From UHGV virus genome UHGV-1528002: a DNA stretch of 36,070 bases; one strand, written 5' to 3'. The notes below the pieces were generated by a model. That model did not search any database and was not told the origin of the DNA. It was given only the letters and a program-made list of their open reading frames with translations. Positions 14,960 through 34,734 of this stretch are shown piece after piece; positions within the stretch are counted from its first letter, which is position 1; each line of letters begins with the position of its first letter. Position numbers and translations under genes: made by a program. The stretch comes from a virus.

Positions 14960-15036
14960 TGGCGTGGCATGCAGGATTCGAACCTGCGACCAACCGCTTA
15001 GAAGGCGGTTGCTCTGTCCAACTGAGCTAATGCCAC
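14960..15036 (-). tRNA. tRNA-Arg, anticodon UCU, CCA encoded
   Basis: Minus strand folds as a cloverleaf: acceptor GTGGCAT/ATGCCAC, D-stem GCTC/GAGC, anticodon stem ACCGC/GCGGT with loop CTTCTAA, T-arm GCAGG-TTCGAATC-CTGC, discriminator G plus CCA. Confidence 0.85.
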
Positions 15037-21170: not shown

Positions 21171-23641
21171 TGGCTATCAGTTGGATCCAGCCCAGCTTTG
21201 CCGGTGGTGAGATTGGACCGTCGTTGTACGGTCGTATCGACATGGCGAAGTACCAGGTGGCATTGCGCAAGTGCGATAACTTTATCGTGCGGCAGTATGG
21301 CGGCGTTGAGAATCGACCTGGTACGCGTTTTGTCGGTGCCGCCAAATACCCAAATCGGAAATGCCGCCTGATCCCGTTCCAGTTCTCGACGGTTCAGACC
21401 TATGCTCTGGAGTTCGGGCACCAGTACATGCGCGTTATCAAAGATGGTGCGTTGGTGCTGAACAGCAGCAATGTTATTTATGAAATTGCCACGCCATATA
21501 CTGAAGCCGATCTGTTCCGAATTAAATTTACGCAAAGCGCCGACGTGCTTACGCTGGTTCACCCGGCATACCCGCCGAAAGAGTTGCGCCGCTATGCGCA
21601 TGACAACTGGCAACTGGTTGATGTGGTAACGAAGAACGGGCCATTTGAAGATATCAATATTGACGAGTCAGTGACGGTTTATGCCAGCGCCAGCACCGGG
21701 ACAATTACGTTAACAGCAAGCGCCTCTATTTTTGGCGCGGAGCAGGTAGGCAAATTGTTCTATCTGGAACAGCCTGCAGTGGATTCAGTGCCGGTATGGG
21801 AAACCAGTAAGAGTACGTCGATTGGCGATATTCGCCGTGCAGACAGTAACTACTATCGCGCCGTTACAGCAGGCAAAACAGGCACTTTGCGCCCTTCGCA
21901 TACAGAAGGCACATCATGGGATGGCTGGGGCGGATCCGGTGATGATGATACTGGCATTGAGTGGGAATATCTGCACAGTGGTTTTGGCATTGCCCGTATC
22001 ACTGCTGCAAATGGAACTACTGCAACTGCCGAGGTGATTTCCTATATCCCTTCGCAGGTCGTTGGCGAGGATAATGCCAGCTATAAATGGGCTAAATATG
22101 CCTGGAACAGTGTTAATGGTTATCCTGGCACTGTTGTTTATTATCAACAACGTCTTTACTTCGCCGCATCGACTGCGTTCCCTCAGACTATCTGGGCCAG
22201 CCGTACCGGGGATTATAAGGATTTTGGCAAAAGCAATCCTACGCAGGATGACGACAGAATTATCTACACCTATGCCGGGCGTCAGGTTAATGAGATCCGC
22301 CACCTGATTGATGTCGGTTCGCTGGTGGCACTGACTTCCGGAGGTGAGTACGTCATCACCGGCGACCAGAACAAAGTGTTAACCCCATCATCATTTGCAT
22401 TCAGCTCTCAGGGATCAAATGGCTCGAGCAATGTCCCACCAATTGCTGTGGCGAATATTGCTCTGTTCGTCCAGGAGAAAGGCAGCGTTGTCCGTGATCT
22501 GGCCTACTCATTCGATGTTGACGGCTATCAGGGGAACGACCTGACCATCCTTGCCAATCATCTTTTTCAGAAGCACAGCATTGTTGACTGGTGCTTCTCG
22601 ATTGTCCCTTACTCCAGCGCCTTCTGCATTCGTGATGACGGTAAATTACTGGTGATGACCTATTTGCGTGATCAGCAGGTTTTTGCATGGGCACCACAGT
22701 CCAGTACCGGAAAATATGAAAGCACATGCAGTATCAGCGAAGGCAATGAAGATGCGGTGTATTTCGTCGTTAACCGAACCGTTAACGGGCAAGCAGTGAG
22801 ATACATCGAGAGACTGTCCAGCCGTTTATTTACCAGCGATGAAGACGCTTTCTTTGTTGATTCTGGCCTTAGCTATGATGGAAGAAATACGTCTGACAGA
22901 ACGATGATCATCACTGGTGGTTCTGGTGAATGGGATTACCGCGCGGAATATACAATCAGTGTTTCTGGTGGTGCGTACTTCACCAGTAGTGATGTCGGTG
23001 CGCAACTACAGTTCCCTTATGCCGGAACTGATCCTGATACTGGCGATGAAGTGTCAAAAGAATTACGTTGCGACATTATTTCTGTAACCAGCAATACCGC
23101 TGTAGTGGTTCGTCCTAACAGGAACGTCCCGCCATCCCTCAGGAATGTGGCCACCACGAACTGGCAGATGGCGCGCCGGGCATTTGGCGGCTTGTCTCAT
23201 CTTGAAGGTCAGACCGTAAACATTCTCTCTGATGCGAACGTGGAACCACAGAAAGTGGTTTCCGGAGGTGCCGTCACGCTGGAATCTCCGGGGGCTGTAG
23301 TGCACATCGGCCTGCCAATAACTGCTGAATTCGAAACACTGGATATCAACATTAACGGACAGGAAACGCTGCTGGACAAAAAACAGGTGATCCCCTCCGT
23401 TACTCTGGTTGTGAATGCCAGTCGCGGCATCTGGGCGACTACGCCCGGCGGTAAATGGTACGAATATCCACAGCGTGAATTCGAGTTCTACGATGATCCT
23501 GTTGATGATGCTACCGGAAAAGTAGAAGTGAAACTGGACAGTAACTGGGGCAAAAACGGACGTGTAAAAATCCGTCAGCTTGACCCGTTGCCGCTGTCTG
23601 TTCTTGCCGTTATTCCTCGCCTTACTGTTGGGGGATTCTGA
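21170..23641 (+). CDS. Tail tubular protein B (T7 gp12-like)
   Basis: 823 aa, size and position as T7 gp12; weak N-terminal resemblance. Confidence 0.55.
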   Translation: MAISWIQPSFAGGEIGPSLYGRIDMAKYQVALRKCDNFIVRQYGGVENRPGTRFVGAAKYPNRKCRLIPFQFSTVQTYALEFGHQYMRVIKDGALVLNSSNVIYEIATPYTEADLFRIKFTQSADVLTLVHPAYPPKELRRYAHDNWQLVDVVTKNGPFEDINIDESVTVYASASTGTITLTASASIFGAEQVGKLFYLEQPAVDSVPVWETSKSTSIGDIRRADSNYYRAVTAGKTGTLRPSHTEGTSWDGWGGSGDDDTGIEWEYLHSGFGIARITAANGTTATAEVISYIPSQVVGEDNASYKWAKYAWNSVNGYPGTVVYYQQRLYFAASTAFPQTIWASRTGDYKDFGKSNPTQDDDRIIYTYAGRQVNEIRHLIDVGSLVALTSGGEYVITGDQNKVLTPSSFAFSSQGSNGSSNVPPIAVANIALFVQEKGSVVRDLAYSFDVDGYQGNDLTILANHLFQKHSIVDWCFSIVPYSSAFCIRDDGKLLVMTYLRDQQVFAWAPQSSTGKYESTCSISEGNEDAVYFVVNRTVNGQAVRYIERLSSRLFTSDEDAFFVDSGLSYDGRNTSDRTMIITGGSGEWDYRAEYTISVSGGAYFTSSDVGAQLQFPYAGTDPDTGDEVSKELRCDIISVTSNTAVVVRPNRNVPPSLRNVATTNWQMARRAFGGLSHLEGQTVNILSDANVEPQKVVSGGAVTLESPGAVVHIGLPITAEFETLDININGQETLLDKKQVIPSVTLVVNASRGIWATTPGGKWYEYPQREFEFYDDPVDDATGKVEVKLDSNWGKNGRVKIRQLDPLPLSVLAVIPRLTVGGF

Positions 23642-24105
23642 TGATTGACGTTCAAATTATTCCCGCTACCGAAGAGCATCTTCAGATGATTTTGCCGGAT
23701 GTTCGTCAGGCTGATATTGACGAACTGTATGCGGTATCGCTGATGACTACCGAAGATGCGCTGCGTGTTGGTCTTCGCACTGCGACTATGGCCTGGTCAG
23801 GATTTGCGAACGGAGAACTGGTAACCATGTTTGGCGTATCTCCGGCGTCAATGATCGGTGGCAATGGTACGCCCTGGCTGGTAGGAACCAGCCGTATTGA
23901 AAAATATCAGAAGACATTTCTTCGCCACTGCCGCCCTGTATTGCAGCAGATGCTGGCAGTTTATCCGCGCCTGGAAAACTACGTCGACGAGCGAAACCAT
24001 GTTGCCAAAGCATGGCTGCACTGGCTTGGATTCAGGCTTGAAGAAGCCGCGCCTTATGGTGCTCTTGGTCTTAATTTCCACAGATTTCACATGGAGAGAA
24101 AATAA
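23641..24105 (+). CDS. Putative internal virion protein (T7 gp13-like position)
   Basis: 154 aa between tail tube B and a gp14-like gene; assignment by position only. Confidence 0.4.
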   Translation: MIDVQIIPATEEHLQMILPDVRQADIDELYAVSLMTTEDALRVGLRTATMAWSGFANGELVTMFGVSPASMIGGNGTPWLVGTSRIEKYQKTFLRHCRPVLQQMLAVYPRLENYVDERNHVAKAWLHWLGFRLEEAAPYGALGLNFHRFHMERK

Positions 24106-24671
24106 TGTGTAACCCAGCCATCGCTTTGGTTGCCGTCACAGTGGCATCCACAGCCGCGTCAATGTACAGCCAGAGCAAGCAGGCAAAATACCAGTCAGCC
24201 ATAGCTGATCGGAATGCTGAAATTGCTGAAGCTCAGGCACAGGATTCAATCAATCGTGGGAATATTGAAGCGGATCAGCGTCGTCGTGAAATGCGTCAAC
24301 GCTCAGGTACTGCGGCGGCCACTATGGGGGCTACCGGTGCGGAATTAAGTAGCGGAACAGCTCTTGACGTTTTTGCGGATAATGCTCAGTTCGGCACTCT
24401 TGATGCGTTAACGACAGTGAATAATGCTCAGCGTGAGGCATATGGGTATCAGGTTCAGGGAATGAATGCTCAGGCACAGGGGGCTGCTGCTCAGTCGGCT
24501 GCTAAATCATCGATGACCAGCACTTTGTTAACGGCACCACTAAAAGCGTACGGTGCATATAAGTTGGGTGGCGGAAGTATCAATCCGATTAGTAAGCAAG
24601 GAAACACGCCAATGTTATCTAACTCAGGTTTTATGAATTCTGACTCCCGATTCAAAATAGGAGGTTACTGA
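24105..24671 (+). CDS. Internal virion protein B-like (T7 gp14-like)
   Basis: 188 aa starting MC, Ala/Gln/Ser-rich like T7 gp14. Confidence 0.5.
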   Translation: MCNPAIALVAVTVASTAASMYSQSKQAKYQSAIADRNAEIAEAQAQDSINRGNIEADQRRREMRQRSGTAAATMGATGAELSSGTALDVFADNAQFGTLDALTTVNNAQREAYGYQVQGMNAQAQGAAAQSAAKSSMTSTLLTAPLKAYGAYKLGGGSINPISKQGNTPMLSNSGFMNSDSRFKIGGY

Positions 24672-27292
24672 TGCCTGTTGTTCCTACTACATCCGGCCGC
24701 CAGGTGCAAAGTCGTGGTGTGCAAACCGGTGGTTTTCAGACCTTCGATGTTCCTCAAGCAGGTCAGGTGCTGGCGAATGTCGCAGATCAGTATGCGGTGG
24801 CATATGGTGAAGCCAGGCAGAAAGAGAATGTTGCTATGGTTCAGGAGGCATCCCTTAAACTCAGTCAGACAGGCAGCGATCTGCTGAATAACCCTGAAAC
24901 AGGTTTGCTTAACCTGAAAGGGAAAAATGCTATTGGAAAAGGTCAGGAGTATACGCAGCAGTTTGATGCTCAGGTCGAACAACTGGCTATGTCGCTGCCG
25001 GATGAACAGGCTCGTAATGCTTTCATGCAGCAGGCGCAGCAGCAGCGCATTCAGTTCACTACGCAGGCCGGGAGGTACGAAATAGGACAGGTTCGCCAGT
25101 ATGAGGCGGATATGCAGGATGCGACACTAAAAAACCTATCGATGCAGTTCCGTAACCCGACAATGGCAAACCAGGCAGGATTGAAGGCATATCATAGCAT
25201 CATCGCTTACGGCGAAGCCCACGGCCAGAGTCAGGAAGAGATTGAACAGAACTGGGTTTCGTGGCGCGAGAATGCCGCGAACGGTGCGGCGGAGGCGTGG
25301 TATGTGCCGATGTATCAACAGATGATGGGTCCGAACGGCAAGATTGAGGTAACCGATACACCGAGTGAGGCGCAGTTATTCTCTGCAATAATCTGGCAGG
25401 AGAGTGGCGGAAATCAGTACGGAAAGGACGGAACACCTCTGGTGTCGCCAAAAGGCGCTGTTGGCGTAGCGCAGGTGACGGAAGATACTGGCCCCGAAGC
25501 TGCCCGCCTTGCTGGCGTGCCGTGGGACCGAGATAAATGGTTGAATGACCCGCGCTATAATGCCCGCTTGGGGCAAGCTTATTTCGGCGCGCAGATGAAG
25601 AAATACGACAATAACCCGGTTCTGGCAGTAGCTGCCTATAACGCTGGCCCAGGAAAGGTTGACGGCTGGATTAAACAGATTGGCGATCCGCGCACAGGCG
25701 AAGTCAGTAACGCCCAGTTTGCCGCAGCTATCCCATACGACGAGACGCGCAATTATGTGGCAAAAGTAACTGGCAGTGCTGGAGCTATTCCTGGATCTGC
25801 GACGATGGAAAACCTCATCGCACAGCCATTCTGGAACGCCATGAGTCCGGACAAAAAGTCGCAGATGATGAGCAAGGTTGCTGGCATGTACGACATGCAG
25901 GCTTCAGCCGGTCGCGTTGCGCTACAGAGTCGAATGCAGGACGACCTATCCAAAATTGAGGCCGGTAAGCAGGTGACGCCTATTTCAGCGCACGAATGGG
26001 CCGCCGTTATGCCGCTTCAGGCAGCGCCTGCCGAGCGCCTGCAGATGGAAAAAACCTTCCAGCAATACCAGCAGGCAATGACGCTACAACCTGTTTATCA
26101 GACCATTATGCAGGGCAACGTCCAGCAAGGTACCGCCGCCGTGCAGGCAATGGCACCGCAGGAAAACGACTCTGACTTTAAATACAAAGCAGAGCTTTAT
26201 GCATCGGCAAAGGTCAAGCTTGGGCAGGTACTGAAGGCGCGGGAAGCGGATCCGGGGGCATGGCTGCAACAAAACTCTCCGGTTGTGCAGGCTGCATTCC
26301 AGCAGTACCTGAATGACCCTTCATCTGGTGAATACCTAGTTTCCCGCATACAGTCTGAAAAAGACCGCCTGGGGATAATGAGCAAAAAAGTTTTACCGGA
26401 GTCCATGGTCAACGACGTACTGCAGCGTATTGACAACACGCAGGAATCTAGCGTAAAGGCCATTCAGTCGGTGGCGCAGTCGTTCGGCAAATACTCGGAT
26501 CAGGTGATGCGGCAGGTGCAAAATAAAGCATTCCCAGCTTTAAAGGTTGTAATGTCTACAGAAAACCAACGGGCAGCAGATGCGTTGTGGCAAATACGGA
26601 ATGTACCTACTTCTGATTTGAGATCTGGTTTGGATAAAAACCAGGCAGACAGTGCAGACTCATCGTGGACAGATCAATTTAAAGATTTTTCTTCAACTCT
26701 TATTCCTCAGAGAAATGGTGCTGAAAACTGGACTATTTATAACGAGCAGGGAAAACGCTTGACCTACAACTACATGCAGCGCGGAATGTCGGCGTCTGAT
26801 GCAGCAAAACAGGCGTATCAGGACCTTCTCGGCGAGCAGTACCAGACCAATGGCACTTGGCGGCTACCTAATCGTGCAGGGGTAGATATTCGTGACGTTA
26901 ACGATGGTGCCAATGCGTATCTGAAAAACCTGTCAGCAGATCAGATTATGCCGCTTATTGGTGACCCAAGGCTACCTGATGAGGTCAACCGTGAGCAGAG
27001 TATCTCCCGCATTCGTGATAATGCGCAGTGGGTTACCAACAGCGACGAAACAGGACTTACCCTGATGCTCAACGGGCTGATCGTCAACGGTGCCGACGGC
27101 AACCCGATTACGGTGCCGTTCAACGATCTGGCGAAACTGGGAACAACCAACCGATCAGTATGGAACCGCATTACCAAGTTCATTGATACTCCGGTGAAAT
27201 ATACTCCCGGACAGTCTAAGGAATACAGCGCAGAAAGTCAGCGCGACAACCTGATTAACATTTTCCAGAACGGCCAGCAATCAGGACGATAA
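24671..27292 (+). CDS. Internal virion/ejection protein with lytic transglycosylase domain
   Basis: 873 aa; central IIWQESGGNQ...GAVGVAQV...AVAAYNAGPGKV is the SLT catalytic-domain pattern. Confidence 0.75.
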   Translation: MPVVPTTSGRQVQSRGVQTGGFQTFDVPQAGQVLANVADQYAVAYGEARQKENVAMVQEASLKLSQTGSDLLNNPETGLLNLKGKNAIGKGQEYTQQFDAQVEQLAMSLPDEQARNAFMQQAQQQRIQFTTQAGRYEIGQVRQYEADMQDATLKNLSMQFRNPTMANQAGLKAYHSIIAYGEAHGQSQEEIEQNWVSWRENAANGAAEAWYVPMYQQMMGPNGKIEVTDTPSEAQLFSAIIWQESGGNQYGKDGTPLVSPKGAVGVAQVTEDTGPEAARLAGVPWDRDKWLNDPRYNARLGQAYFGAQMKKYDNNPVLAVAAYNAGPGKVDGWIKQIGDPRTGEVSNAQFAAAIPYDETRNYVAKVTGSAGAIPGSATMENLIAQPFWNAMSPDKKSQMMSKVAGMYDMQASAGRVALQSRMQDDLSKIEAGKQVTPISAHEWAAVMPLQAAPAERLQMEKTFQQYQQAMTLQPVYQTIMQGNVQQGTAAVQAMAPQENDSDFKYKAELYASAKVKLGQVLKAREADPGAWLQQNSPVVQAAFQQYLNDPSSGEYLVSRIQSEKDRLGIMSKKVLPESMVNDVLQRIDNTQESSVKAIQSVAQSFGKYSDQVMRQVQNKAFPALKVVMSTENQRAADALWQIRNVPTSDLRSGLDKNQADSADSSWTDQFKDFSSTLIPQRNGAENWTIYNEQGKRLTYNYMQRGMSASDAAKQAYQDLLGEQYQTNGTWRLPNRAGVDIRDVNDGANAYLKNLSADQIMPLIGDPRLPDEVNREQSISRIRDNAQWVTNSDETGLTLMLNGLIVNGADGNPITVPFNDLAKLGTTNRSVWNRITKFIDTPVKYTPGQSKEYSAESQRDNLINIFQNGQQSGR

Positions 27293-27293
27293 C

Positions 27294-28991
27294 ATGCCAA
27301 TTTACACAGATGATCCGGGACAGGGCATTAACCAGCCAATTGGCAACGCGCCAGCAGGGCTTGGCGAATCGCTGCTTTCTTCCCTTAAGCAGGGATTTGA
27401 AGAGGGGCCGGTCATGTCCGGCTACCGCTTTGCGCAGGCCGACTCGCTGGCGAATGACCCAAACTCTACAGTTATCAGTAAGCAGGACGCAGATGAGCTC
27501 CTGAAGCAGTACGGCGTAAAGAGCATAAACGTGCCAGATTCTGGCGTTACGCAGGCTTTTCTCGATCATGTTATTGCCGAACGCAAAGATTCTCTGGCAC
27601 GCCAGCAGATTGCGATGTCGGCACCGAGCGGGTGGGTAGCCACGCCGCTTAATTTCGCAGCCAGCCTAGCTGGTTCAATGGCAGATCCTGGTAACGTGGC
27701 GCTGGCGCTGGTTCCGTTCGCTGGAGAAGCAAAGGCAGCTTCTGTGCTTGGCCGATTTGGCGAGCGATTTGTTGCTGGTGCACGCATGGGGGCAGCGCAG
27801 GCGGTGGTGACCGTGCCGCTTACCGGGCTGGCAGCGGCGGCGGAAGGTGACGACTTCACCTATAGCAACGCGTTGGAAAGTACTTTCTTTAACACGATGG
27901 CTGGCGGTCTAATGCATGCCGGCGGCGGCCTTATCGCCGATATCGTGCGACCGCGTCGCGTTCCCGATGCTGCAACGGGAGAGTCCCCGGCGTTTTCTGG
28001 CGATGCGCAGCCAACCCCGGTGATAACGCCTGACAACATTCCGGCGGGCGTGAATATCCCTGAGGTTGGCGCTAACGCAGATCTGGCGGCGGCCATTTCC
28101 AGTGAAGCGGAGAGCTACGCATACAGCCGGGCTTATGACGACGTGGTTCCTGACTATATGGCGCGCCAGCAGGAGTTACAGAGCGGGCAGATCGGTAACG
28201 TTGCCGACCTGCGTGCCGAGCTTGCGGCTAATCAACGTCATGCTGACTCGCTTGATGCGACGCTGCAACAGCGCACCAAAAAGTATCAGGGGAAGCGGAT
28301 GAAGTTTAAGGATGCGCGCTCTAGGGCACTGAAAGAGATTCAGGCCGAGAAAGACGCCATCGCTGCACGCAATCAGGAGATCAATACATCGCTGGAGCAG
28401 AACGCGACAGCAGAGCAGGCGCGCTGGCGCCAGTCTCAGATTTCCCGCGGCGAGATCCCCGACGACCTGAAAGTCACCATTTCCGAGCGTGCGCAGCAGA
28501 TCCTGGACGGCATGCAGATGTCGCCGGTCGCTGGCGCAGTTCGCACTGCCGCAAGCGCCATCAGGGATGCTGACTGGAACGTGAACCAGCAGGCGTATCG
28601 CGCTGCGCTGGCACACATGATGGAAGGACGTAGCCCAGATGTTGAGCCCTTCTATGAACTGCACAAACCAGCACTGCGTGAACGCGCCATCCATCGCATA
28701 CAGAACCCGGCACGGCAGGTTGATGAAACGGCTCGCCCAGCAAGCGAAACAGCCGATCGGGTTTATCAAGAAACGCAAAAGGCAGATCATGAAATTACCG
28801 CTGCCGCTGCAGACCTTGATAACGAGCTCAACCTGAGTAACGCCCTGCTTGACGATATCGCTGTCGATAACCCTGATCTTGCGACCACGTTGCGCCAGAA
28901 ACTCAATGATATTCGTGCCGACGCCAGCGACAATAGCATGAGCAACGCTTTCCGGGCATTTGCCGCCTGTATGATTAACCGGGGGATGTGA
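27294..28991 (+). CDS. Internal virion/ejection protein
   Basis: 565 aa, Ala-rich with a hydrophobic segment; position within the ejection-protein block. Confidence 0.5.
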   Translation: MPIYTDDPGQGINQPIGNAPAGLGESLLSSLKQGFEEGPVMSGYRFAQADSLANDPNSTVISKQDADELLKQYGVKSINVPDSGVTQAFLDHVIAERKDSLARQQIAMSAPSGWVATPLNFAASLAGSMADPGNVALALVPFAGEAKAASVLGRFGERFVAGARMGAAQAVVTVPLTGLAAAAEGDDFTYSNALESTFFNTMAGGLMHAGGGLIADIVRPRRVPDAATGESPAFSGDAQPTPVITPDNIPAGVNIPEVGANADLAAAISSEAESYAYSRAYDDVVPDYMARQQELQSGQIGNVADLRAELAANQRHADSLDATLQQRTKKYQGKRMKFKDARSRALKEIQAEKDAIAARNQEINTSLEQNATAEQARWRQSQISRGEIPDDLKVTISERAQQILDGMQMSPVAGAVRTAASAIRDADWNVNQQAYRAALAHMMEGRSPDVEPFYELHKPALRERAIHRIQNPARQVDETARPASETADRVYQETQKADHEITAAAADLDNELNLSNALLDDIAVDNPDLATTLRQKLNDIRADASDNSMSNAFRAFAACMINRGM

Positions 28992-31171
28992 TGGCAGCAA
29001 ACGAATTTTTGACGCAGTGCGAGCGCAGTGTAAATGCTGCCGCTGGTCGCGAGCTTTCTTCCGATGAGATGGAGTCGCTGGTGCGTGACATGAACGACAC
29101 CACTAGGCGAATTCTGGCGACCAATGAGGCGCTGTCTCTGGAAGAGGCCGCGATGCGCGCAGCGGAAGAACTGAGCAATGCCGATATGCTGGCAAAACAG
29201 ATTGAGGCTCGCAATAAGGCAATCAACGCCCGTATTGCCGCACAACGACTTAGAGAGCTTCGTACTATCTGGAAAGACCGCCCGGATATCGGGCTTGAAG
29301 CAATGCTGGTTGGCCGCAACGATGCGCGTATCGGCGCCCGCCGGTCGGTATCTTCGGAGGTGGCGCAACTGCGCGGCAAGTATCATTCCGGTATCAACTA
29401 CGATTTTGACCGTGCCGGGCTGGTGCAATTCATCGCCAGCGGCAGCAATGACCGGGAAATTGCCGATGCAATGTGGCGCATAGGGCGCGGGCAGTCAACT
29501 GACGGTATGACAAAGCAATCCGTAAGCGCTGCACAAATCATCATGAAATGGCAGGAAACTGCGCGTATTGATGAGAACCGCGCCGGGGCATGGATACGCA
29601 AAGAGCCGGGCTATATAGTGCGCCAGTCACACGACATCATGAAGATCCGCGCCGCAGGTTATGAAGCATGGCGAAATGCTATTCTCCCGCGCCTTGATGA
29701 GCGCACTTTTGACGGCGTGGCTGACCGCGAGCAGTTCATGCGTAACATTTATAACGGGCTGGCTTCCGGCGTGCATCTTACATCTGAAAAGCCCGATTGG
29801 ATGAATGGCTTTAAGGGATCGGCGAACGCAGCTAAACGCGCCAGCCAAGAGCGAATTTTGCACTTCAAAGATGGTATCTCGTGGCACGAGTACAACCAGC
29901 AATTCGGCACCGGCAGCCTGCGAGAAGCGCTGTTTGGTGGCTTAAACAGCGCTGCCCGCACAACGGGCATGATGCGCGTACTGGGCACTAACCCACAGAA
30001 CATGTTTAAGTACCTGACGGACACCATTGCTGAAGATATCAGCAAATCCGGAAGACCGGCAGCGTTGGCTGACTACATGACGAAGGTGCGTCGCATTAAC
30101 CGTACCGTAATGCCGCAGGTTGACGGCTCGCTAAATATTCCTGGCAGCGTAGGCTGGGCCAATGCGTCGGCGGCTGTACGCGGCTGGTTGCGTATGAGCC
30201 AGCTTGGTGGCGCGGTAATCTCATCGTTTAACGACGTGCCTATCGCCGCTACCGAGATGCGCTACCAAGGGCAGAATTTTATGCAGGCGTTGCTTGGTGC
30301 TATGAGAGGCCGCTTCACGCGTTACAACAGCGCGGAGCAGAAAGAGATCCTTTCCTCTAAGGGGATCAAGCCAACGCAGCGCGCTATCGCTGACGCACGC
30401 GATCAATTGGAAGGGCAGTTGCGCGGCTACATCCTTGACCGCCTGAATATCGCCATGTCAGAGCCTGGCGATCGCACGCAGGCGTTTATGAAGATGGGTA
30501 CGGTGCCAGGAACGGTGGCTGGGGAAGCAATACGATTCGCTGGTCAGTACAAATCGTTCACTGCAAGCTTCATGCAGAACGTGCTAGGACGCGAAGTATT
30601 CGGGCGTGGTTATATTCCTGCTGGGCTTGGTGAGTCGAAAACCGGATCGCTGACGAATGCGCTGCTACGTAACGGGAAGGGGGCTTTCCTTGGCGCTGCA
30701 AACCTCTTTGTCTGGGCGACTATGTTTGGTTATATCTCCATGCAGTCAAAACTCATGCTGAAAGGGCAAACACCACGCCCGGCAGATGCCAAGACGTTTC
30801 TCGCAGCCGCATCTCAGGGGGGCGGTCTTGGCATCTTGGGTGACTTCATGTTTGGCGAAGTCAATCGCATGGGGGCCGGGCCGGTTACGTCGCTAATGGG
30901 GCCGGCAGCATCGAACGCTGACAGCATTATCACGCTGCTCCAGCAGACCACGAGAGGGGATGCAGATTTGGGTGACTGGTATCGCACGGCACTTGACAAT
31001 ACGCCATTCCTCAACGTGTTCTGGCTTCGTACGGCGATGAATGGTTTAATATTGAACCGGATACAAGATGCCCTTGACCCAGGCTCTCTTGAGCGTTATC
31101 AGCGCCGTGTTGAGCGTGAGCAGGGTAACGAATTTCTGATCCCACCATCGCAGTTCATGCTAGGGAAGTAA
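28988..31171 (+). CDS. Internal virion/ejection protein (large)
   Basis: 727 aa, last large gene before the accessory island; ATGA overlap with the upstream gene. Confidence 0.5.
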   Translation: MMAANEFLTQCERSVNAAAGRELSSDEMESLVRDMNDTTRRILATNEALSLEEAAMRAAEELSNADMLAKQIEARNKAINARIAAQRLRELRTIWKDRPDIGLEAMLVGRNDARIGARRSVSSEVAQLRGKYHSGINYDFDRAGLVQFIASGSNDREIADAMWRIGRGQSTDGMTKQSVSAAQIIMKWQETARIDENRAGAWIRKEPGYIVRQSHDIMKIRAAGYEAWRNAILPRLDERTFDGVADREQFMRNIYNGLASGVHLTSEKPDWMNGFKGSANAAKRASQERILHFKDGISWHEYNQQFGTGSLREALFGGLNSAARTTGMMRVLGTNPQNMFKYLTDTIAEDISKSGRPAALADYMTKVRRINRTVMPQVDGSLNIPGSVGWANASAAVRGWLRMSQLGGAVISSFNDVPIAATEMRYQGQNFMQALLGAMRGRFTRYNSAEQKEILSSKGIKPTQRAIADARDQLEGQLRGYILDRLNIAMSEPGDRTQAFMKMGTVPGTVAGEAIRFAGQYKSFTASFMQNVLGREVFGRGYIPAGLGESKTGSLTNALLRNGKGAFLGAANLFVWATMFGYISMQSKLMLKGQTPRPADAKTFLAAASQGGGLGILGDFMFGEVNRMGAGPVTSLMGPAASNADSIITLLQQTTRGDADLGDWYRTALDNTPFLNVFWLRTAMNGLILNRIQDALDPGSLERYQRRVEREQGNEFLIPPSQFMLGK

Positions 31172-31172
31172 T

Positions 31173-31544
31173 ATGAACAGAATTATATTAATGATTATTC
31201 TTATGCTTTTAGTTGTAAAATCTTTTGCAGATACTACCTCACCGTTAATGATTCAGCCTAAAAATGGGGAAACACTGGAGGATTCTAAAAAGCATACAAT
31301 GGAATATTTTGGATGTATAAAAGGGCAGGCCGTAAAATACGCTAAGACAGGAGAAAGTGTTGATTCTATATCCAAAGCTTCGGTTGTGTCATGCGAGTCG
31401 TACATACAAAAGATTGCTGAATCAAATATATACTATTTAAATTCCTCTCAAGACGGTAAGCGGAAATTTATTGGAAGGCTTAAATCAGATGGTGAAAATT
31501 TAGCAACAAAATTTGCTATGGATGAAAAGCTAAAAAATAAATAG
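31173..31544 (+). CDS. Small secreted protein (signal peptide, 2 Cys), AT-rich moron
   Basis: N-terminal hydrophobic signal MNRIILMIILMLLVVKSFA then polar mature region; very AT-rich codon usage; starts 1 nt after the ejection-protein stop. Confidence 0.5.
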   Translation: MNRIILMIILMLLVVKSFADTTSPLMIQPKNGETLEDSKKHTMEYFGCIKGQAVKYAKTGESVDSISKASVVSCESYIQKIAESNIYYLNSSQDGKRKFIGRLKSDGENLATKFAMDEKLKNK

Positions 31545-31552
31545 GTGACTAC

Positions 31553-31849
31553 ATGCAAGCGATAGGATTCATTGTTTATATCGTCGTTGGTCTTTTTCAG
31601 TTGGCAGCAATTATGGCTGGGCTTGAATCATGGTGGGGATTGCACTGGATAATTGCAGCCCCCATTGCTTTCATCGTGAGCTATATTCCATTTGTTGGAG
31701 CGATTGTTGGTATGGTTGGCGCTGTGGATGTATGGCGGTGGGAGTGGTGGCAGGCTGGCCTTCTCTTCTTTGGTGGGATCATCTTTGCTATTGTCTGCGG
31801 TGGAATGTCATCATTTTTCGAATGGCTATCATTCAGAAAAAGAGTGTGA
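31553..31849 (+). CDS. Small integral membrane protein (3 predicted TM helices)
   Basis: 98 aa with three hydrophobic stretches and a basic C-terminus (FRKRV); AGGTGA RBS. Confidence 0.5.
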   Translation: MQAIGFIVYIVVGLFQLAAIMAGLESWWGLHWIIAAPIAFIVSYIPFVGAIVGMVGAVDVWRWEWWQAGLLFFGGIIFAIVCGGMSSFFEWLSFRKRV

Positions 31850-31858
31850 CATGTCACA
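31845..31858. repeat. Palindrome TGTGACATGTCACA, copy 3
   Basis: Perfect 14-bp palindrome overlapping the stop codon of the membrane-protein gene. Confidence 0.7.
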
Positions 31859-31883
31859 GGCCGCTTTCGCGGCCTTGTTTTTT
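31859..31883 (+). terminator. Rho-independent terminator ending the rightward late/accessory operon
   Basis: GGCCGC-tttc-GCGGCC followed by TTGTTTTTT. Confidence 0.65.
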
Positions 31884-32043
31884 AACGAATGCCACCGCCG
31901 CCCGGGCGGGAATCCGCAGAACGCCCACCGCAGCGGGAGCCGTCAGCGGCAGTATCGCTGTCGTGCTGACAACGACCGGCAAAGGCCTGAGTTGAAGCTA
32001 CCAGAGACAACAAAACGAACAGTGCAGCAAATGCTTTTTTCAT
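31882..32043 (-). CDS. Small secreted peptide (53 aa precursor)
   Basis: MKKAFAALFVLLSLVASTQAFA signal peptide with AxA site, about 31-aa mature part with 2 Cys; own TTGACG-16-TATAGA promoter-like region at 32050-32080. Confidence 0.4.
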   Translation of the reverse strand: MKKAFAALFVLLSLVASTQAFAGRCQHDSDTAADGSRCGGRSADSRPGGGGIR

Positions 32044-32112
32044 TGTGAAATTTCCATCTATAAGCCACCTCAATGTGGCGTCAATGAGTGTAGCACTGAC
32101 TTTTGTTTCGTC

Positions 32113-32138
32113 CACAAAAAAGCCCGCGCTGCGGGCTT
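32113..32138 (-). terminator. Rho-independent terminator after the 210-aa gene
   Basis: Minus strand AAGCCCGC-agc-GCGGGCTT followed by TTTTTTG. Confidence 0.65.
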
Positions 32139-32141
32139 CTA

Positions 32142-32774
32142 TTAATGCAGTTTATCTTTGCTTATAACCAGTAGTCTGTGGGTATGCACATCTTTATCAC
32201 TGCCCCAACAGAAATCAGCCCACTGGCTATAGAAATCATCCCATGATGTCATGAAGCTAAGAGGTCTATCTTCTTCAGAGCCATCTGAAACGTATACATT
32301 ATATCCCGGGGTGTTTATAGCCCAAGAAATCATTCTTTCCCAGAATCTTCTCCCATCGATTGTTTGTTGCTCATCAGATACAACGATCGCATATTGCTCT
32401 AGGAAGAACTGAAAAAAAATCTGAGGCAAACCATGAACAGCACGGTCATGAATAACATTAGGCGTACGCCATACCATGATCTGCGTACATGTTCTTTTGG
32501 CTTCGACGATATCTTCCCGAAAGATTAACTTAACCGCATACACCGTTTCTGGAGTATCGCTGGTAGTAATCATTCTGTAATGATCGCCATTACAAGATTT
32601 TACAAGGCGATAACCATAAGGTGTTGTGAATCCCGGAAGAACGAAATCAACCACACCTTTCGCTAAGTAGCTTTCGGTGTGACTAGTGTTCTTCTCAGAC
32701 ATGTTCAGTTTTCTATCGAAATCTGCTTCTGGGATAATGTATGGCATCGCTTTTCTTGTTGTATTTGTTCTCAT
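32142..32774 (-). CDS. Hypothetical protein (210 aa) under an operator-controlled promoter
   Basis: Strong GGGAGGA RBS; AT-rich; no recognised domain; promoter with overlapping operator immediately upstream. Confidence 0.6.
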   Translation of the reverse strand: MRTNTTRKAMPYIIPEADFDRKLNMSEKNTSHTESYLAKGVVDFVLPGFTTPYGYRLVKSCNGDHYRMITTSDTPETVYAVKLIFREDIVEAKRTCTQIMVWRTPNVIHDRAVHGLPQIFFQFFLEQYAIVVSDEQQTIDGRRFWERMISWAINTPGYNVYVSDGSEEDRPLSFMTSWDDFYSQWADFCWGSDKDVHTHRLLVISKDKLH

Positions 32775-32919: not shown

Positions 32920-33606
32920 TCAGAAGAACCCTGCCTTGTCGTTGATGTACTCCGCGTGGGTCTGGATATCACGCAGGCATTTACTCACACCGACGATGTA
33001 GCAGAACATGGTGGTCAGTTCCGCCGCCGCGCCCGATACGTCATGCCCGTCTTCCTGTAACTGGTTCAGCAAATTCATCAGCAGTGAGTTCTCCGTCAGG
33101 CCGAGAACACCAGACGGCGAATGAATCAGGCTGCGGTAGCCGGGCTTCAGCGGGGCACTGTAGGTTTTGTTCTCTATCTTCATCGCCTGCATCACTGCTG
33201 ATGCTGTGGCGTTTGCAACCTGGTCGGCAACCATCTTTATGCGTTCTTCCTGCGGGAGCGAGTTTTTAATGTAACTTCCGGTGCGGCGGATCTGAGGAAG
33301 AACCTCACCTGTAACCCATTTACGAAAGCGGTAGGGGATAGTGCCTGGTGTCACCGCATCGCGGCAGCGGAGGATCAGTGTGTAGAGGCCTGACTCGCTG
33401 ATAATATTGGTTTCGCCTTGACGACCTAAGTTAAATTTAGCCCTTTCATCATCATCAAGAGATTTGATTGACATGGTGGGGTTTGTCAGTTGAAGAGCTT
33501 TAATAACGTCTTTGGCAACAAACCAAGGATTTCCATCAATAACAATGGCTCGAATGGTTGCTTCTGATTCAAAATGAAAAACAGATGGGGTTACGTTAGC
33601 AGTCAT
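32920..33606 (-). CDS. Antirepressor, BRO-N domain with KilAC-like C-terminal domain
   Basis: N-terminal FHFESEATIRAIVIDGNPWFVAKDVIKALQL...IISESGLYTLILRC is the BRO-N pattern; ATG 33606 behind AAGGTGA RBS; C-terminal 75 aa are paralogous to the small gene at 34757-35014. Confidence 0.8.
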   Translation of the reverse strand: MTANVTPSVFHFESEATIRAIVIDGNPWFVAKDVIKALQLTNPTMSIKSLDDDERAKFNLGRQGETNIISESGLYTLILRCRDAVTPGTIPYRFRKWVTGEVLPQIRRTGSYIKNSLPQEERIKMVADQVANATASAVMQAMKIENKTYSAPLKPGYRSLIHSPSGVLGLTENSLLMNLLNQLQEDGHDVSGAAAELTTMFCYIVGVSKCLRDIQTHAEYINDKAGFF

Positions 33607-33762
33607 GGCAATCACCTTTTAGTATGGTTAATCACCACCTGAGGTGCAAATCTCGTTGGTGGTGAGACGTACAGGGTTTGCACTACCGGCTAAAAGGACC
33701 CGGCGCACCTTTCGGTGCCCCTGCACGTCCCACCATAATTCTGGCATGACTGTGCTATACGC

Positions 33763-33784
33763 ATAAAAAAACCACGTCTGGCGT
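33763..33784 (-). terminator. Terminator-like hairpin inside the antirepressor 5' leader
   Basis: Minus strand CCACG-ccaga-CGTGG followed by TTTTTTT, about 160 nt upstream of the antirepressor start. Confidence 0.45.
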
Positions 33785-33877
33785 GGTATGCGCCTTTTAG
33801 TAATCCGGGGTGCAAATCCCGGCACTGGATTTTGCCAGTGCTCAATTACTATGGCACAAGAGGAGTGCGATGTAAAT

Positions 33878-34005: not shown

Positions 34006-34734
34006 ATGGAAGTTTTCTGGATAGTTGTTGGTGTGGTTGCGGTGATTATTTACGTTATCAACCAGAACAAGACTAAGATCTCTGATCGTACGGTCGTTAA
34101 TCATAACAAAACGATAAAGACCGAAGATGGGGAGATAACGATTAATCGTACACAGGTGATAGAACACACCTCTACTCAGTTTCAAAAAACTGGAGGTAAT
34201 GCGCCTAATATTTCCGCACCTCCTGCTTATGATAGTGCGGTAATCCAGACATATTATAAACAGCAGGAGTTAGCAAAAGAGAGGCAACTGATTCAGCCAA
34301 AGCCGTTTACAGCTGAGCTTCCACCTGGAGTGTCAACGCGTCCGGCATATCATGGAAGATTCCCTGGTGATGACATATCGTCTCAGTCATCTAAAAAAGC
34401 ACCTCAGGCAGTATCAGAGCCAGCAAGAATACCTTCTGTATCGCCGCCAAAAGAAGAATCAGCTAACAGAGTTTCAAGTGGTAGCAAGCAGTGCTTGCGA
34501 TGCAGAATAAACCTTCCATATGAAAAATTCAGGAAATCGTCAAAAAATCCAGATGGATTGACTAAGTGGTGTGCAAGGTGTCTCGATGGCCCAAAGAATA
34601 CACGCCATATGAAGTGGTGCCCAATTTGTAATGTCCGCAGAAAACGAACCAGCTTTTACCCTAATAATCAAAATGCGGACGGCTTAATGGCATGGTGCAA
34701 AACGTGCTGGGATGAGCACAAAGCGAAACGATAG
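34006..34734 (+). CDS. Membrane-anchored protein with tandem C-terminal zinc ribbons
   Basis: N-terminal TM helix (VFWIVVGVVAVIIYVI), low-complexity linker, two repeats of CxxC...NPDGL..WCxxC; GAGGAAAA RBS. Confidence 0.55.
   Translation: MEVFWIVVGVVAVIIYVINQNKTKISDRTVVNHNKTIKTEDGEITINRTQVIEHTSTQFQKTGGNAPNISAPPAYDSAVIQTYYKQQELAKERQLIQPKPFTAELPPGVSTRPAYHGRFPGDDISSQSSKKAPQAVSEPARIPSVSPPKEESANRVSSGSKQCLRCRINLPYEKFRKSSKNPDGLTKWCARCLDGPKNTRHMKWCPICNVRRKRTSFYPNNQNADGLMAWCKTCWDEHKAKR

What the first reader, a model, noticed from the sequence alone, without database searches (positions are those of the whole stretch)
31173..31883. AT-rich secreted-protein plus 3-TM membrane-protein pair translationally coupled to the ejection-protein operon
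The 123-aa gene starts 1 nt after the stop of the last ejection protein and has markedly lower GC than the structural genes, indicating recent acquisition. It encodes a signal-peptide protein with two Cys. The next gene encodes a 98-aa three-helix membrane protein with a basic tail. The pair ends at a strong terminator. Candidate functions are superinfection exclusion or injection blocking, a holin-like lysis component (no endolysin is nearby, so this is weak), or a lysogenic-conversion envelope factor.
Basis: inference. Interest (0 to 1): 0.6.

Follow-up and report, generated by a model that had tools for sequence, protein, structure and literature searches.

The report
Envelope-protein cargo slot after phage ejection genes
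Two small, real but uncharacterised phage genes (one exported to the periplasm, one in the inner membrane) sit in a swap-in slot at the end of the DNA-ejection gene operon of an epsilon15/phiV10-type E. coli prophage, where related phages carry a dozen other envelope proteins; they most likely block entry of rival phages, but this is untested.

Summary
A 123-aa gene (31173-31544, here S) starts 1 nt after the stop of the last internal-virion (ejection) gene. It has a signal peptide and two Cys that are invariant across the family, with GC 0.33 against 0.55 upstream. A 98-aa three-helix membrane protein with a basic tail (31553-31849, here M) follows, then a strong terminator (31858-31883). Both are real genes: dN/dS is 0.02-0.14, AlphaFold2 pLDDT is 88-91, and homologues occur in several enterobacterial genera.

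The interpretation needs three corrections.
- **Not an obligate pair.** In 5,426 complete E. coli genomes, M occurs in 216, S in 7, and both together in 5.
- **Not a recent acquisition.** S homologues down to about 27% identity sit in this same position behind very different ejection genes.
- **Part of a variable slot.** In related prophages the position holds at least 12 unrelated families, nearly all secreted or membrane proteins, including a Rap1a-family peptidoglycan-hydrolase immunity protein. All are promoterless and use the Shine-Dalgarno sequence in the last codons of the ejection gene.

Neither protein matches SieA, PADLOC defence models, Rap1a or any solved fold; the only holin hit is below Pfam's threshold. 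Superinfection exclusion aimed at the ejection machinery is the best-supported function, by inference only (about 0.4).

The parts
24105..24671 (+). T7 gp14-family internal virion protein (context: start of the ejection-protein block)
   Evidence: Pfam PF24072 at 32.9 bits (cut-off 27). phrog_418 'internal virion protein'.
24671..27292 (+). E1: 873-aa internal virion protein with an SLT lytic-transglycosylase domain
   Evidence: Pfam PF01464 SLT, E = 1.6e-17. phrog_1044.
27294..28991 (+). E2: 565-aa internal virion protein
   Evidence: phrog_3003 over its full length, plus a weak match to phrog_342 'internal virion protein'.
28988..31171 (+). E3: last ejection or internal-virion gene, 727 aa here. 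It carries an in-frame 369-nt deletion near 30359 compared with the 847-849-aa relatives.
   Evidence: phrog_684 'virion structural protein'. Deletion shown by blastn and blastp against L002. All 68 IMG/VR relatives have the long form.
31162..31172 (+). Docking junction. The last codons of E3 (AGGGAAG TAA) supply the Shine-Dalgarno sequence for whichever cargo gene follows. Homology between loci with different cargo ends exactly at this stop codon.
   Evidence: Alignment A4 of nine loci carrying seven different cargo genes. The gap to the first cargo gene is between -4 and +4 nt in nearly all type-A loci.
31173..31544 (+). S: 123-aa precursor of a periplasmic helical protein of about 104 aa with two invariant Cys. 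The signal peptide is encoded by 31173-31229.
31543..31552 (+). S-M junction. The Shine-Dalgarno sequence AGGTGA overlaps the S stop codon, leaving an 8-nt spacer. The same junction precedes M behind other upstream genes.
   Evidence: L005: TAAATAGGTGACTACATG. Searches show the same 8-nt spacing in L058 and L091.
31553..31849 (+). M: 98-aa inner-membrane protein, a member of phrog_3075. It has three TM segments and a W-rich loop DVWRWEWWQ. The inferred topology is N-terminus outside and basic C-terminus in the cytoplasm.
31858..31883 (+). Intrinsic terminator closing the late operon and the slot. It is conserved in E. coli loci that carry different cargo, and in phiV10.

Best explanation
The window is an epsilon15/phiV10-type (Uetakevirus) prophage of E. 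coli.

**Shown.**
- S and M are two separable, promoterless cargo cassettes in a hypervariable slot.
- The slot lies between the stop codon of the last internal-virion (ejection) gene and the operon terminator.
- The slot almost only holds envelope-targeted proteins.
- S is exported by Sec to the periplasm and is probably stapled by a C48-C74 disulfide.
- M is a 3-TM inner-membrane protein.

**Inferred.**
- Both are superinfection-exclusion-type factors acting where incoming podovirus ejection proteins build the trans-envelope DNA conduit.
- S would act in the periplasm and M at the inner membrane.
- Each would interfere independently with conduit assembly or DNA entry by related phages.
- This resembles P22 SieA (an inner-membrane protein encoded next to gene 16) and the T4 Sp/Imm duo in concept.

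They are transcribed and translated as the tail of the late operon. Whether they are also expressed from the prophage is unknown.
For: **Phage type.** Uetakevirus relatives appear.

**The slot.**
- Across about 78 loci, the genes starting within a few nt of the E3 stop fall into at least 12 unrelated families. Nearly all have a signal peptide or TM segments.
- Homology between loci breaks exactly at the E3 stop codon.
- The same terminator closes the slot on the right.
- phiV10 has a 46-aa 2-TM protein in this position.
- One allele is a Pfam Rap1a immunity protein at 48 bits against a cut-off of 27.7. That family neutralises a peptidoglycan hydrolase in the periplasm.

**S family.**
- It is tiny: 17 clusters among 1.8 billion representative proteins.
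- In all six prophage contexts examined it sits directly after E3. This holds even behind E3 proteins only 25-50% identical.
- Its alleles are far apart (27-45% identity), while each subfamily is under strong purifying selection. This pattern is common for specificity or arms-race genes.

**M family.**
- It is 91-100% identical behind E3 types that are only 25% identical, with dS saturated and dN/dS 0.02-0.05.
- This fits a conserved target.

**Precedent.** P22 SieA is a 3-TM inner-membrane protein encoded between gene 16 and the tailspike gene. It blocks DNA injection, and escape mutations map to the ejection proteins gp16 and gp20 (PMC10883804).

**Dispensability.** Absence from most related phages shows the genes are accessory.
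Against: - No functional data of any kind exist for either family.
- No sequence or fold similarity was found to SieA, Rap1a or PADLOC models. No PHROG annotated as an exclusion function matched, and there was no PDB or BFVD fold match.
- No sigma-70-like promoter lies upstream. Every cargo gene is coupled to the late operon. Expression in a lysogen, which classical exclusion requires, is therefore not supported by the sequence. P22 sieA, by contrast, is convergent and has its own promoter.
- The Rap1a allele suggests the slot may carry host-protective cargo that has nothing to do with phage entry.
Confidence: 0.4

Rival explanations
1. S and M are host-protective envelope cargo unrelated to phage entry. 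They could be orphan immunity or shielding proteins against periplasm-acting toxins such as T6SS or bacteriocin peptidoglycan hydrolases and membrane-targeting effectors. They could also be other lysogenic-conversion factors.
For: - A true Rap1a-family immunity protein occupies the same slot in L069 and L070.
- S is a small periplasmic helical protein with two invariant Cys, the general format of many T6SS immunity proteins.
- The neighbouring minus-strand slot carries toxin-antitoxin or defence-type cargo: YafO, HicAB and DUF4760.
- A distant M homologue stands behind a divergent intergenic region near an integrase, so it must be expressed on its own there.
Against: - S is not detectably related to Rap1a (hhalign probability 0.3%) or to any solved immunity protein.
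- The S family has been seen almost only directly behind E3. It is not next to effectors or in bacterial immunity islands.
- No promoter for lysogen expression is visible.
Confidence: 0.2
2. S and M act late in the lytic cycle. They would tune lysis timing (holin, antiholin or pinholin-like M; a T4 RI-like periplasmic sensor S), or protect the producing cell from lysis-from-without by sibling virions.
For: - The genes are strictly coupled to the late operon, with no promoter of their own.
- M has a weak hit to Phage_holin_5_2 (E = 0.027).
- T4 RI is a precedent for a small secreted periplasmic regulator (established knowledge, not tested here).
Against: - The holin hit is well below Pfam's threshold (15.2 against 29.2 bits).
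- Relatives already carry a full lysis cassette elsewhere.
- The genes are absent from most relatives.
- BFVD fold matches to holins are non-significant, with E about 10.
Confidence: 0.12
3. S and/or M are structural or assembly components of the ejection apparatus or virion.
For: - They hold a conserved position at the end of the internal-virion gene block and are translationally coupled to E3.
Against: - A Sec signal peptide with invariant Cys (S) and a very hydrophobic 3-TM protein (M) do not fit packaging into a cytoplasmically assembled capsid.
- Both are missing from phiV10 and most relatives, and are replaced by unrelated genes.
Confidence: 0.05

Closest known systems
P22 SieA (superinfection exclusion A; Leavitt et al. 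2024, PMC10883804)
   Same: - A small 3-TM inner-membrane protein of a temperate podovirus.
- Encoded directly after the last ejection-protein gene and before the antirepressor region and tailspike gene.
- Accessory: only 22 of 66 P22-like phages carry it.
- Exists as several very divergent types.
   Different: - No sequence relationship to M (hhalign probability 0.2%).
- The SieA motif FxRYPxEAxxFNK is absent from M.
- SieA is 162-164 aa against 98 aa for M.
- sieA is on the opposite strand with its own promoter, whereas S and M are co-directional, promoterless and coupled to the late operon.
- Exclusion is demonstrated for SieA and untested here.
T4 Sp and Imm (established knowledge: Lu & Henning 1994, listed in the reference lists seen)
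   Same: In concept, two independent small envelope proteins, one acting on the periplasmic side and one in the inner membrane. Together they stop peptidoglycan penetration and DNA entry by superinfecting phage. The upstream operon here includes an SLT-domain ejection protein.
   Different: - No PHROG or Pfam match links S or M to Sp or Imm.
- Sp and Imm are early genes of a virulent myovirus.
- The resemblance is by analogy only.
Morons of lambdoid phages (Hendrix-type: promoter + ORF + terminator, atypical GC), for example HK97 gp15
   Same: - Accessory genes of atypical GC inserted between conserved late genes.
- They end at a terminator, vary between relatives and often encode envelope proteins.
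   Different: - No promoter of their own.
- Cassettes are docked within a few nt of the E3 stop and reuse the Shine-Dalgarno sequence in E3's last codons.
- The S family has diverged in place over a long time rather than arriving recently.
Rap1a / Tai4-type periplasmic T6SS immunity proteins (Pfam PF18602)
   Same: - A small Sec-exported protein.
- A true Rap1a-family gene is an alternative occupant of the same slot.

Membership tests
phrog_3075 (uncharacterised phage membrane protein family) | Full-length profile match | tested here: met
   M matches residues 1-97 of the 98-position profile, E = 2.7e-54.
P22 SieA family | Sequence homology to SieA types A-C, including the cytoplasmic motif FxRYPxEAxxFNK | tested here: not met
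   hhalign of A2 against P22 SieA gives probability 0.2%. The motif, described, is absent from M on inspection.
P22 SieA family | Inner-membrane protein with about 3 TM segments, encoded between the last ejection gene and the tailspike gene | tested here: met
   Three hydrophobic segments and the AlphaFold2 helices. Position shown. Membrane localisation is predicted, not measured.
P22 SieA family | Own promoter and expression from the prophage | tested here: inconclusive
   No sigma-70-like site on the + strand lies upstream of S or M, and the gaps are 1 nt and 8 nt. Consensus scans cannot exclude weak or internal promoters.
P22 SieA family | Blocks DNA injection by related phages, with escape mutations in ejection proteins | not testable with these tools
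   This needs plating, K+ efflux and escape-mutant experiments.
Holins (Pfam Phage_holin_5_2 and others) | Profile match above the gathering threshold, and location in a lysis cassette | tested here: not met
   15.2 bits against a cut-off of 29.2. In relatives the lysis cassette lies after the tailspike gene. BFVD holin matches have E about 10.
Rap1a immunity proteins (PF18602) | Profile match or fold similarity | tested here: not met
Sec-exported periplasmic protein | An n-h-c signal peptide with small residues at -3 and -1. The leader varies but stays hydrophobic across homologues. Conserved Cys for periplasmic disulfide formation. | tested here: met
   - The window has KSFA|D and homologues have ASA|D.
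- One remote homologue has a lipobox (LSAC).
- Both Cys are invariant in 18 sequences down to 23% identity.
- In the two window comparisons with the closest relatives (L006, L058), leader dN (0.16-0.19) exceeds leader dS (about 0.09), while mature dN/dS is about 0.05.
- This rests on inspection and conservation. No dedicated signal-peptide predictor was available.
Classical moron (promoter + ORF + terminator, atypical GC) | Autonomous transcription unit | tested here: not met
   Atypical GC and a terminator are present. There is no promoter, and the genes are translationally coupled to E3.
Known anti-phage defence systems (PADLOC-DB) | Any profile match | tested here: not met
   No family matches S or M at E <= 1.

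The most novel reading that the evidence does not exclude
The slot behind the last ejectosome gene of epsilon15/phiV10-type podoviruses could be a dedicated diversity hotspot for 'anti-ejectosome' factors.
- Promoterless cassettes dock at the E3 stop codon, borrow its Shine-Dalgarno sequence and are produced with the ejection proteins.
- S would define a new family of periplasmic disulfide-stapled proteins that bind incoming ejection proteins in an allele-specific way.
- M would be a highly constrained inner-membrane blocker of a conserved entry step.
- Together they would form a two-layer exclusion system with no homology to SieA, Imm, Sp, Cor or Llp.
Probability: 0.3. Interest if true: 0.7.

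Novelty: new variant of a known kind. Interest (0 to 1): 0.45.

Why it matters
Very few mechanisms that stop podovirus genome delivery after adsorption are understood; P22 SieA is essentially the only one studied in detail. If S and M are exclusion factors, they add two unrelated protein families. One of them is periplasmic, a location where no SieA-like blocker is known.

The finding also identifies a compact, easily recognised locus: the E3 stop codon, then cargo, then a terminator. At least a dozen further candidate families can be mined from it.
- M is present in about 4% of complete E. coli genomes, so it could affect phage-therapy host range.
- A Rap1a-type immunity gene in the same slot links prophage cargo to interbacterial (T6SS) competition.

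If the genes prove to have no exclusion phenotype, the slot is still a clear example of promoterless cassette exchange inside a virion operon.

Tried and rejected
**Searches that found nothing.**
- Pfam, NCBIfam and PADLOC give nothing significant for S or M.
- PHROGs gives only an unannotated family for M and nothing for S.
- A PDB sequence search with the S profile gives nothing below E = 0.8.
- Foldseek against BFVD gives no match at E <= 0.001 for either model.
- The AlphaFold database libraries were not available.
- Rfam found no RNA in 31173-31883.
- Literature searches found no paper on these families or on exclusion in Uetakevirus. The epsilon15 genome paper was not held.

**Ideas rejected.**
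- **M is a SieA homologue.** Rejected.
- **S is a Rap1a relative.** Rejected.
- **The secreted protein downstream of a distant M homologue (L018) is related to S or Rap1a.** Rejected.
- **S simply co-diverges with E3.** Only weakly true. Spearman correlation is 0.39 on non-independent pairs. L091 and L100 have E3 86% identical but S only 32% identical. S alleles are therefore shuffled relative to E3 types.
- **A regulatory element is embedded in the E3 3' end.** Third codon positions vary freely there and no promoter-like site was found.

Full report
**1. What the window is**

The window's slot region (30900-32200) matches Uetakevirus phages (phiv142-3, HEMP4, and the phiV10 terminator) and E. 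coli prophages. Upstream of the finding lies a block of internal-virion (ejection) genes:
- a phrog_308 internal virion protein (23641-24105);
- a T7_gp14-family protein (24105-24671);
- E1, an 873-aa protein with an SLT domain (24671-27292);
- E2, 565 aa (27294-28991);
- E3, 727 aa, phrog_684 'virion structural protein' (28988-31171).

**2.

- S (31173-31544) starts 1 nt after the E3 stop. The Shine-Dalgarno sequence AGGGAAG lies in E3's last codons.
- M (31553-31849) starts 8 nt after the S stop, with AGGTGA overlapping that stop codon.
- S has GC 0.328 and GC3 0.28. E3 has GC 0.554 and GC3 0.61. M has GC 0.46.
- A 7-bp stem with 6 GC pairs and a T-run at 31858-31883 is the only strong terminator-like site in 24000-31900.
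- S begins with a canonical Sec leader (MNRIILMIILMLLVVKSFA|D) and has two Cys.
- M has three hydrophobic segments and a C-terminal RKR. By the positive-inside rule this gives N-terminus outside and C-terminus inside.

**3. Both are real, constrained genes**

*S*
- The word-indexed search finds 22 homologues in E. coli, Klebsiella, Salmonella, Enterobacter, Phytobacter and Sodalis.
- The leader varies but stays hydrophobic, while 53 mature-region columns are invariant.
- dN/dS is 0.04-0.10 for the mature part, with dS 0.4-1.2.
- AlphaFold2 gives a confident helical model with pLDDT 87.6.

*M*
- It is a full-length member of phrog_3075 and has 52 homologues down to 44% identity.
- dN/dS is 0.02-0.05, with dS up to saturation.
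- pLDDT is 90.7. The four model helices read as three TM segments, the middle one kinked at prolines.

**4. They are not an obligate pair**

- Loci exist with S only: L003, L006-9, L029, L054 and others.
- Loci exist with M only: L012-14 and L035-37, where M is directly coupled to E3.
- M also follows other genes, and some loci have both S and M.
- In 5,426 complete E. coli genomes, S occurs in 7 and M in 216.
- S and M occur together in 5.
- In 205 genomes M is preceded by a 195-nt segment holding an unannotated 58-aa 2-TM ORF. The junction TAAATAGGTGACTACATG is the same as in the window.

**5. The position is a hypervariable cargo slot**

I fetched 68 IMG/VR loci with an E3 relative and combined them with the other loci. 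I then followed the + strand ORFs after the E3 stop. The first gene starts within a few nt of the stop (-4 to +4) in nearly all loci and falls into at least 12 unrelated families:

| Cargo | Loci | Features |
|---|---|---|
| S, 123 aa | 22 | signal peptide |
| 186-188 aa, phrog_11983 | 17 | signal peptide |
| M-type, 99 aa | 9 | 3 TM |
| 66 aa and 68 aa | 9 + 8 | 2 TM |
| 51 aa | 3 | small TM proteins |
| 118 aa | 2 | signal peptide; Pfam Rap1a at 48.1 bits against a 27.7 cut-off |
| 160 aa | 1 | lipoprotein |
| 131, 111, 110 and 108 aa | 1 each | TM proteins |

- These loci are not independent samples.
- Alignment of nine loci carrying seven cargo types shows homology running to the E3 stop codon and ending there.
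- In E. coli loci, different cargo is closed by the same terminator, which phiV10 also has.
- In phiV10-type (type-B E3) loci the docking gap is 9 nt, and phiV10 itself carries a 46-aa 2-TM protein there.
- No cargo gene has room for its own promoter, and none is predicted.

**6. S is an old resident of the slot, not a recent arrival**

- An exhaustive profile search of 1.8 billion representative proteins finds only 17 clusters.
- These are small proteins that share C-x25-C and a C-terminal helix (A.K..MD.+L). Most have signal peptides and one has a lipobox.
- Every prophage context examined places them directly after E3, even behind quite different E3 proteins:
  - the 102-aa form in Klebsiella and E. 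coli sits behind a type-B E3 that is 25-27% identical to the window's;
  - the 110-aa form in K. oxytoca sits behind an E3 that is 50% identical;
  - a form of about 145 aa, whose start codon was miscalled, also follows E3.
- The one exception is a Sodalis copy at a contig end, after a Rep3 gene.
- GC is low in all subfamilies checked, 0.33-0.40.
- S divergence follows E3 divergence only loosely. L091 and L100 have E3 86% identical but S 32% identical, so S alleles are exchanged between backbones.
- The 102-aa S also pairs with M using the same 8-nt spacer.

**7. M behaves differently**

- It is 91-100% identical behind E3 types that are only 25% identical. Yet dS between these copies is saturated. 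Extreme purifying selection therefore explains the conservation, not only recent transfer.
- More distant members sit 35 nt after the E3 of another Salmonella podovirus lineage.
- In a high-GC metagenomic prophage, M follows a divergent intergenic region near Bro-N and integrase genes. It must have its own promoter there, and it is followed by another small protein that looks secreted.

**8. Comparison with known systems**

- P22 SieA is the closest functional analogue. It is a 3-TM inner-membrane protein encoded between gene 16 and the tailspike gene, it blocks injection, and escape mutations map to gp16 and gp20 (PMC10883804).
- M is not homologous to it. P22 sieA is also convergent with its own promoter.
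- Nothing links S or M to PADLOC models, holins above threshold, Rap1a, or any PDB or BFVD fold.
- Related prophages have a complete lysis cassette after the tailspike gene. M is therefore not needed as the holin.

**9. Interpretation**

*Shown*
- The slot architecture.
- The separability of S and M.
- Their envelope targeting.
- Strong constraint on both genes.
- The accessory status of both genes.

*Inferred*
- Cargo in this slot is almost always periplasmic or membrane-located, and it is genetically tied to the proteins that cross the envelope at infection.
- On that basis the most economical function is interference with ejectosome assembly or DNA entry by related phages. S would act in the periplasm and M at the inner membrane.
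- The main weakness is expression. The sequence says 'late operon', not 'prophage-expressed'.
- The Rap1a allele argues that the slot must be useful to a lysogen, or that such proteins are repurposed against phage peptidoglycan hydrolases such as E1.
- I put exclusion at about 0.4, other host-protective envelope roles at about 0.2, lysis-timing roles at about 0.12, and structural roles at about 0.05.

**10. Verdict**

This is a correct observation of two uncharacterised accessory genes. The 'pair' and 'recent acquisition' readings need correction. The more interesting result is the cargo slot itself. Novelty is a new variant of a known kind: accessory envelope or exclusion genes next to ejection genes. 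Interest is moderate.

Noticed in passing
window 28988-31171 (junction near 30358-30359): The last ejection gene, E3, carries an in-frame 369-nt (123-codon) deletion compared with L002 and all 68 IMG/VR relatives, which are 2541-2550 nt long. This prophage may make defective virions while keeping S and M intact.
   Followed up: partly
window 31882-32049 (- strand): A 55-aa ORF encodes a signal peptide plus a short Cys- and Gly-rich peptide (MKKAFAALFVLLSLVASTQAFA|GRCQHDS...). It matches phrog_14503 'membrane associated protein' and lies between the slot terminator and the terminator of the 210-aa gene. The 31850-32140 segment seems the most widespread part of the region: 542 E. coli genomes match some part of 30900-32200, against 216 for M.
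   Followed up: partly
window 32142-32774 (- strand) and the same position in L003, L008, L010, L012: A second variable slot lies on the opposite strand. The window's 210-aa protein (phrog_1349, unknown function) is replaced in relatives by a YafO toxin, HicA/HicB, DUF4760 or DUF2335 genes. This is typical toxin-antitoxin or defence-type cargo.
   Followed up: partly
window 33655-33740 and 33765-33841 (- strand): Rfam finds a C4 antisense RNA (77.8 bits) and isrK (67.4 bits) just upstream of the Bro-N antirepressor gene (32920-33615, - strand). This suggests P1/P7-style RNA control of an antirepressor (immI-like region).
   Followed up: no
L069 6547-6903 and L070 6556-6912: In two related prophages the slot after E3 holds a signal-peptide protein that passes Pfam's threshold for Rap1a, the T6SS peptidoglycan-amidase immunity family. 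A T6SS-type immunity gene is thus translationally coupled to a phage virion operon.
   Followed up: partly
L005 3830-4006 (and 205 complete E. coli genomes): An unannotated 58-aa 2-TM ORF with a GTG start and good Shine-Dalgarno sequence lies between the type-B E3 gene and M. RefSeq lists no feature there. No BLASTP similarity was found to the 46-aa 2-TM phiV10 p21, which occupies the same position.
   Followed up: partly
window 34006-34734 (+ strand): A 242-aa protein (phrog_6762) has an N-terminal TM segment and C-terminal Cys-rich zinc-ribbon repeats. The repeats resemble Stc1, endonuclease VII and Lar-like families (weak hits). It lies between the antirepressor region and the tailspike side.
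   Followed up: no
window 14960-15036 (- strand): A tRNA-Arg (anticodon TCT) is encoded inside the prophage.
   Followed up: no
L018 5378-5698: In a high-GC metagenomic prophage, the distant M homologue is followed by a 106-aa protein whose N-terminus looks like a (possibly twin-arginine) signal peptide. It is unrelated to S or Rap1a. This is another case of M adjacent to a small exported protein.
   Followed up: partly
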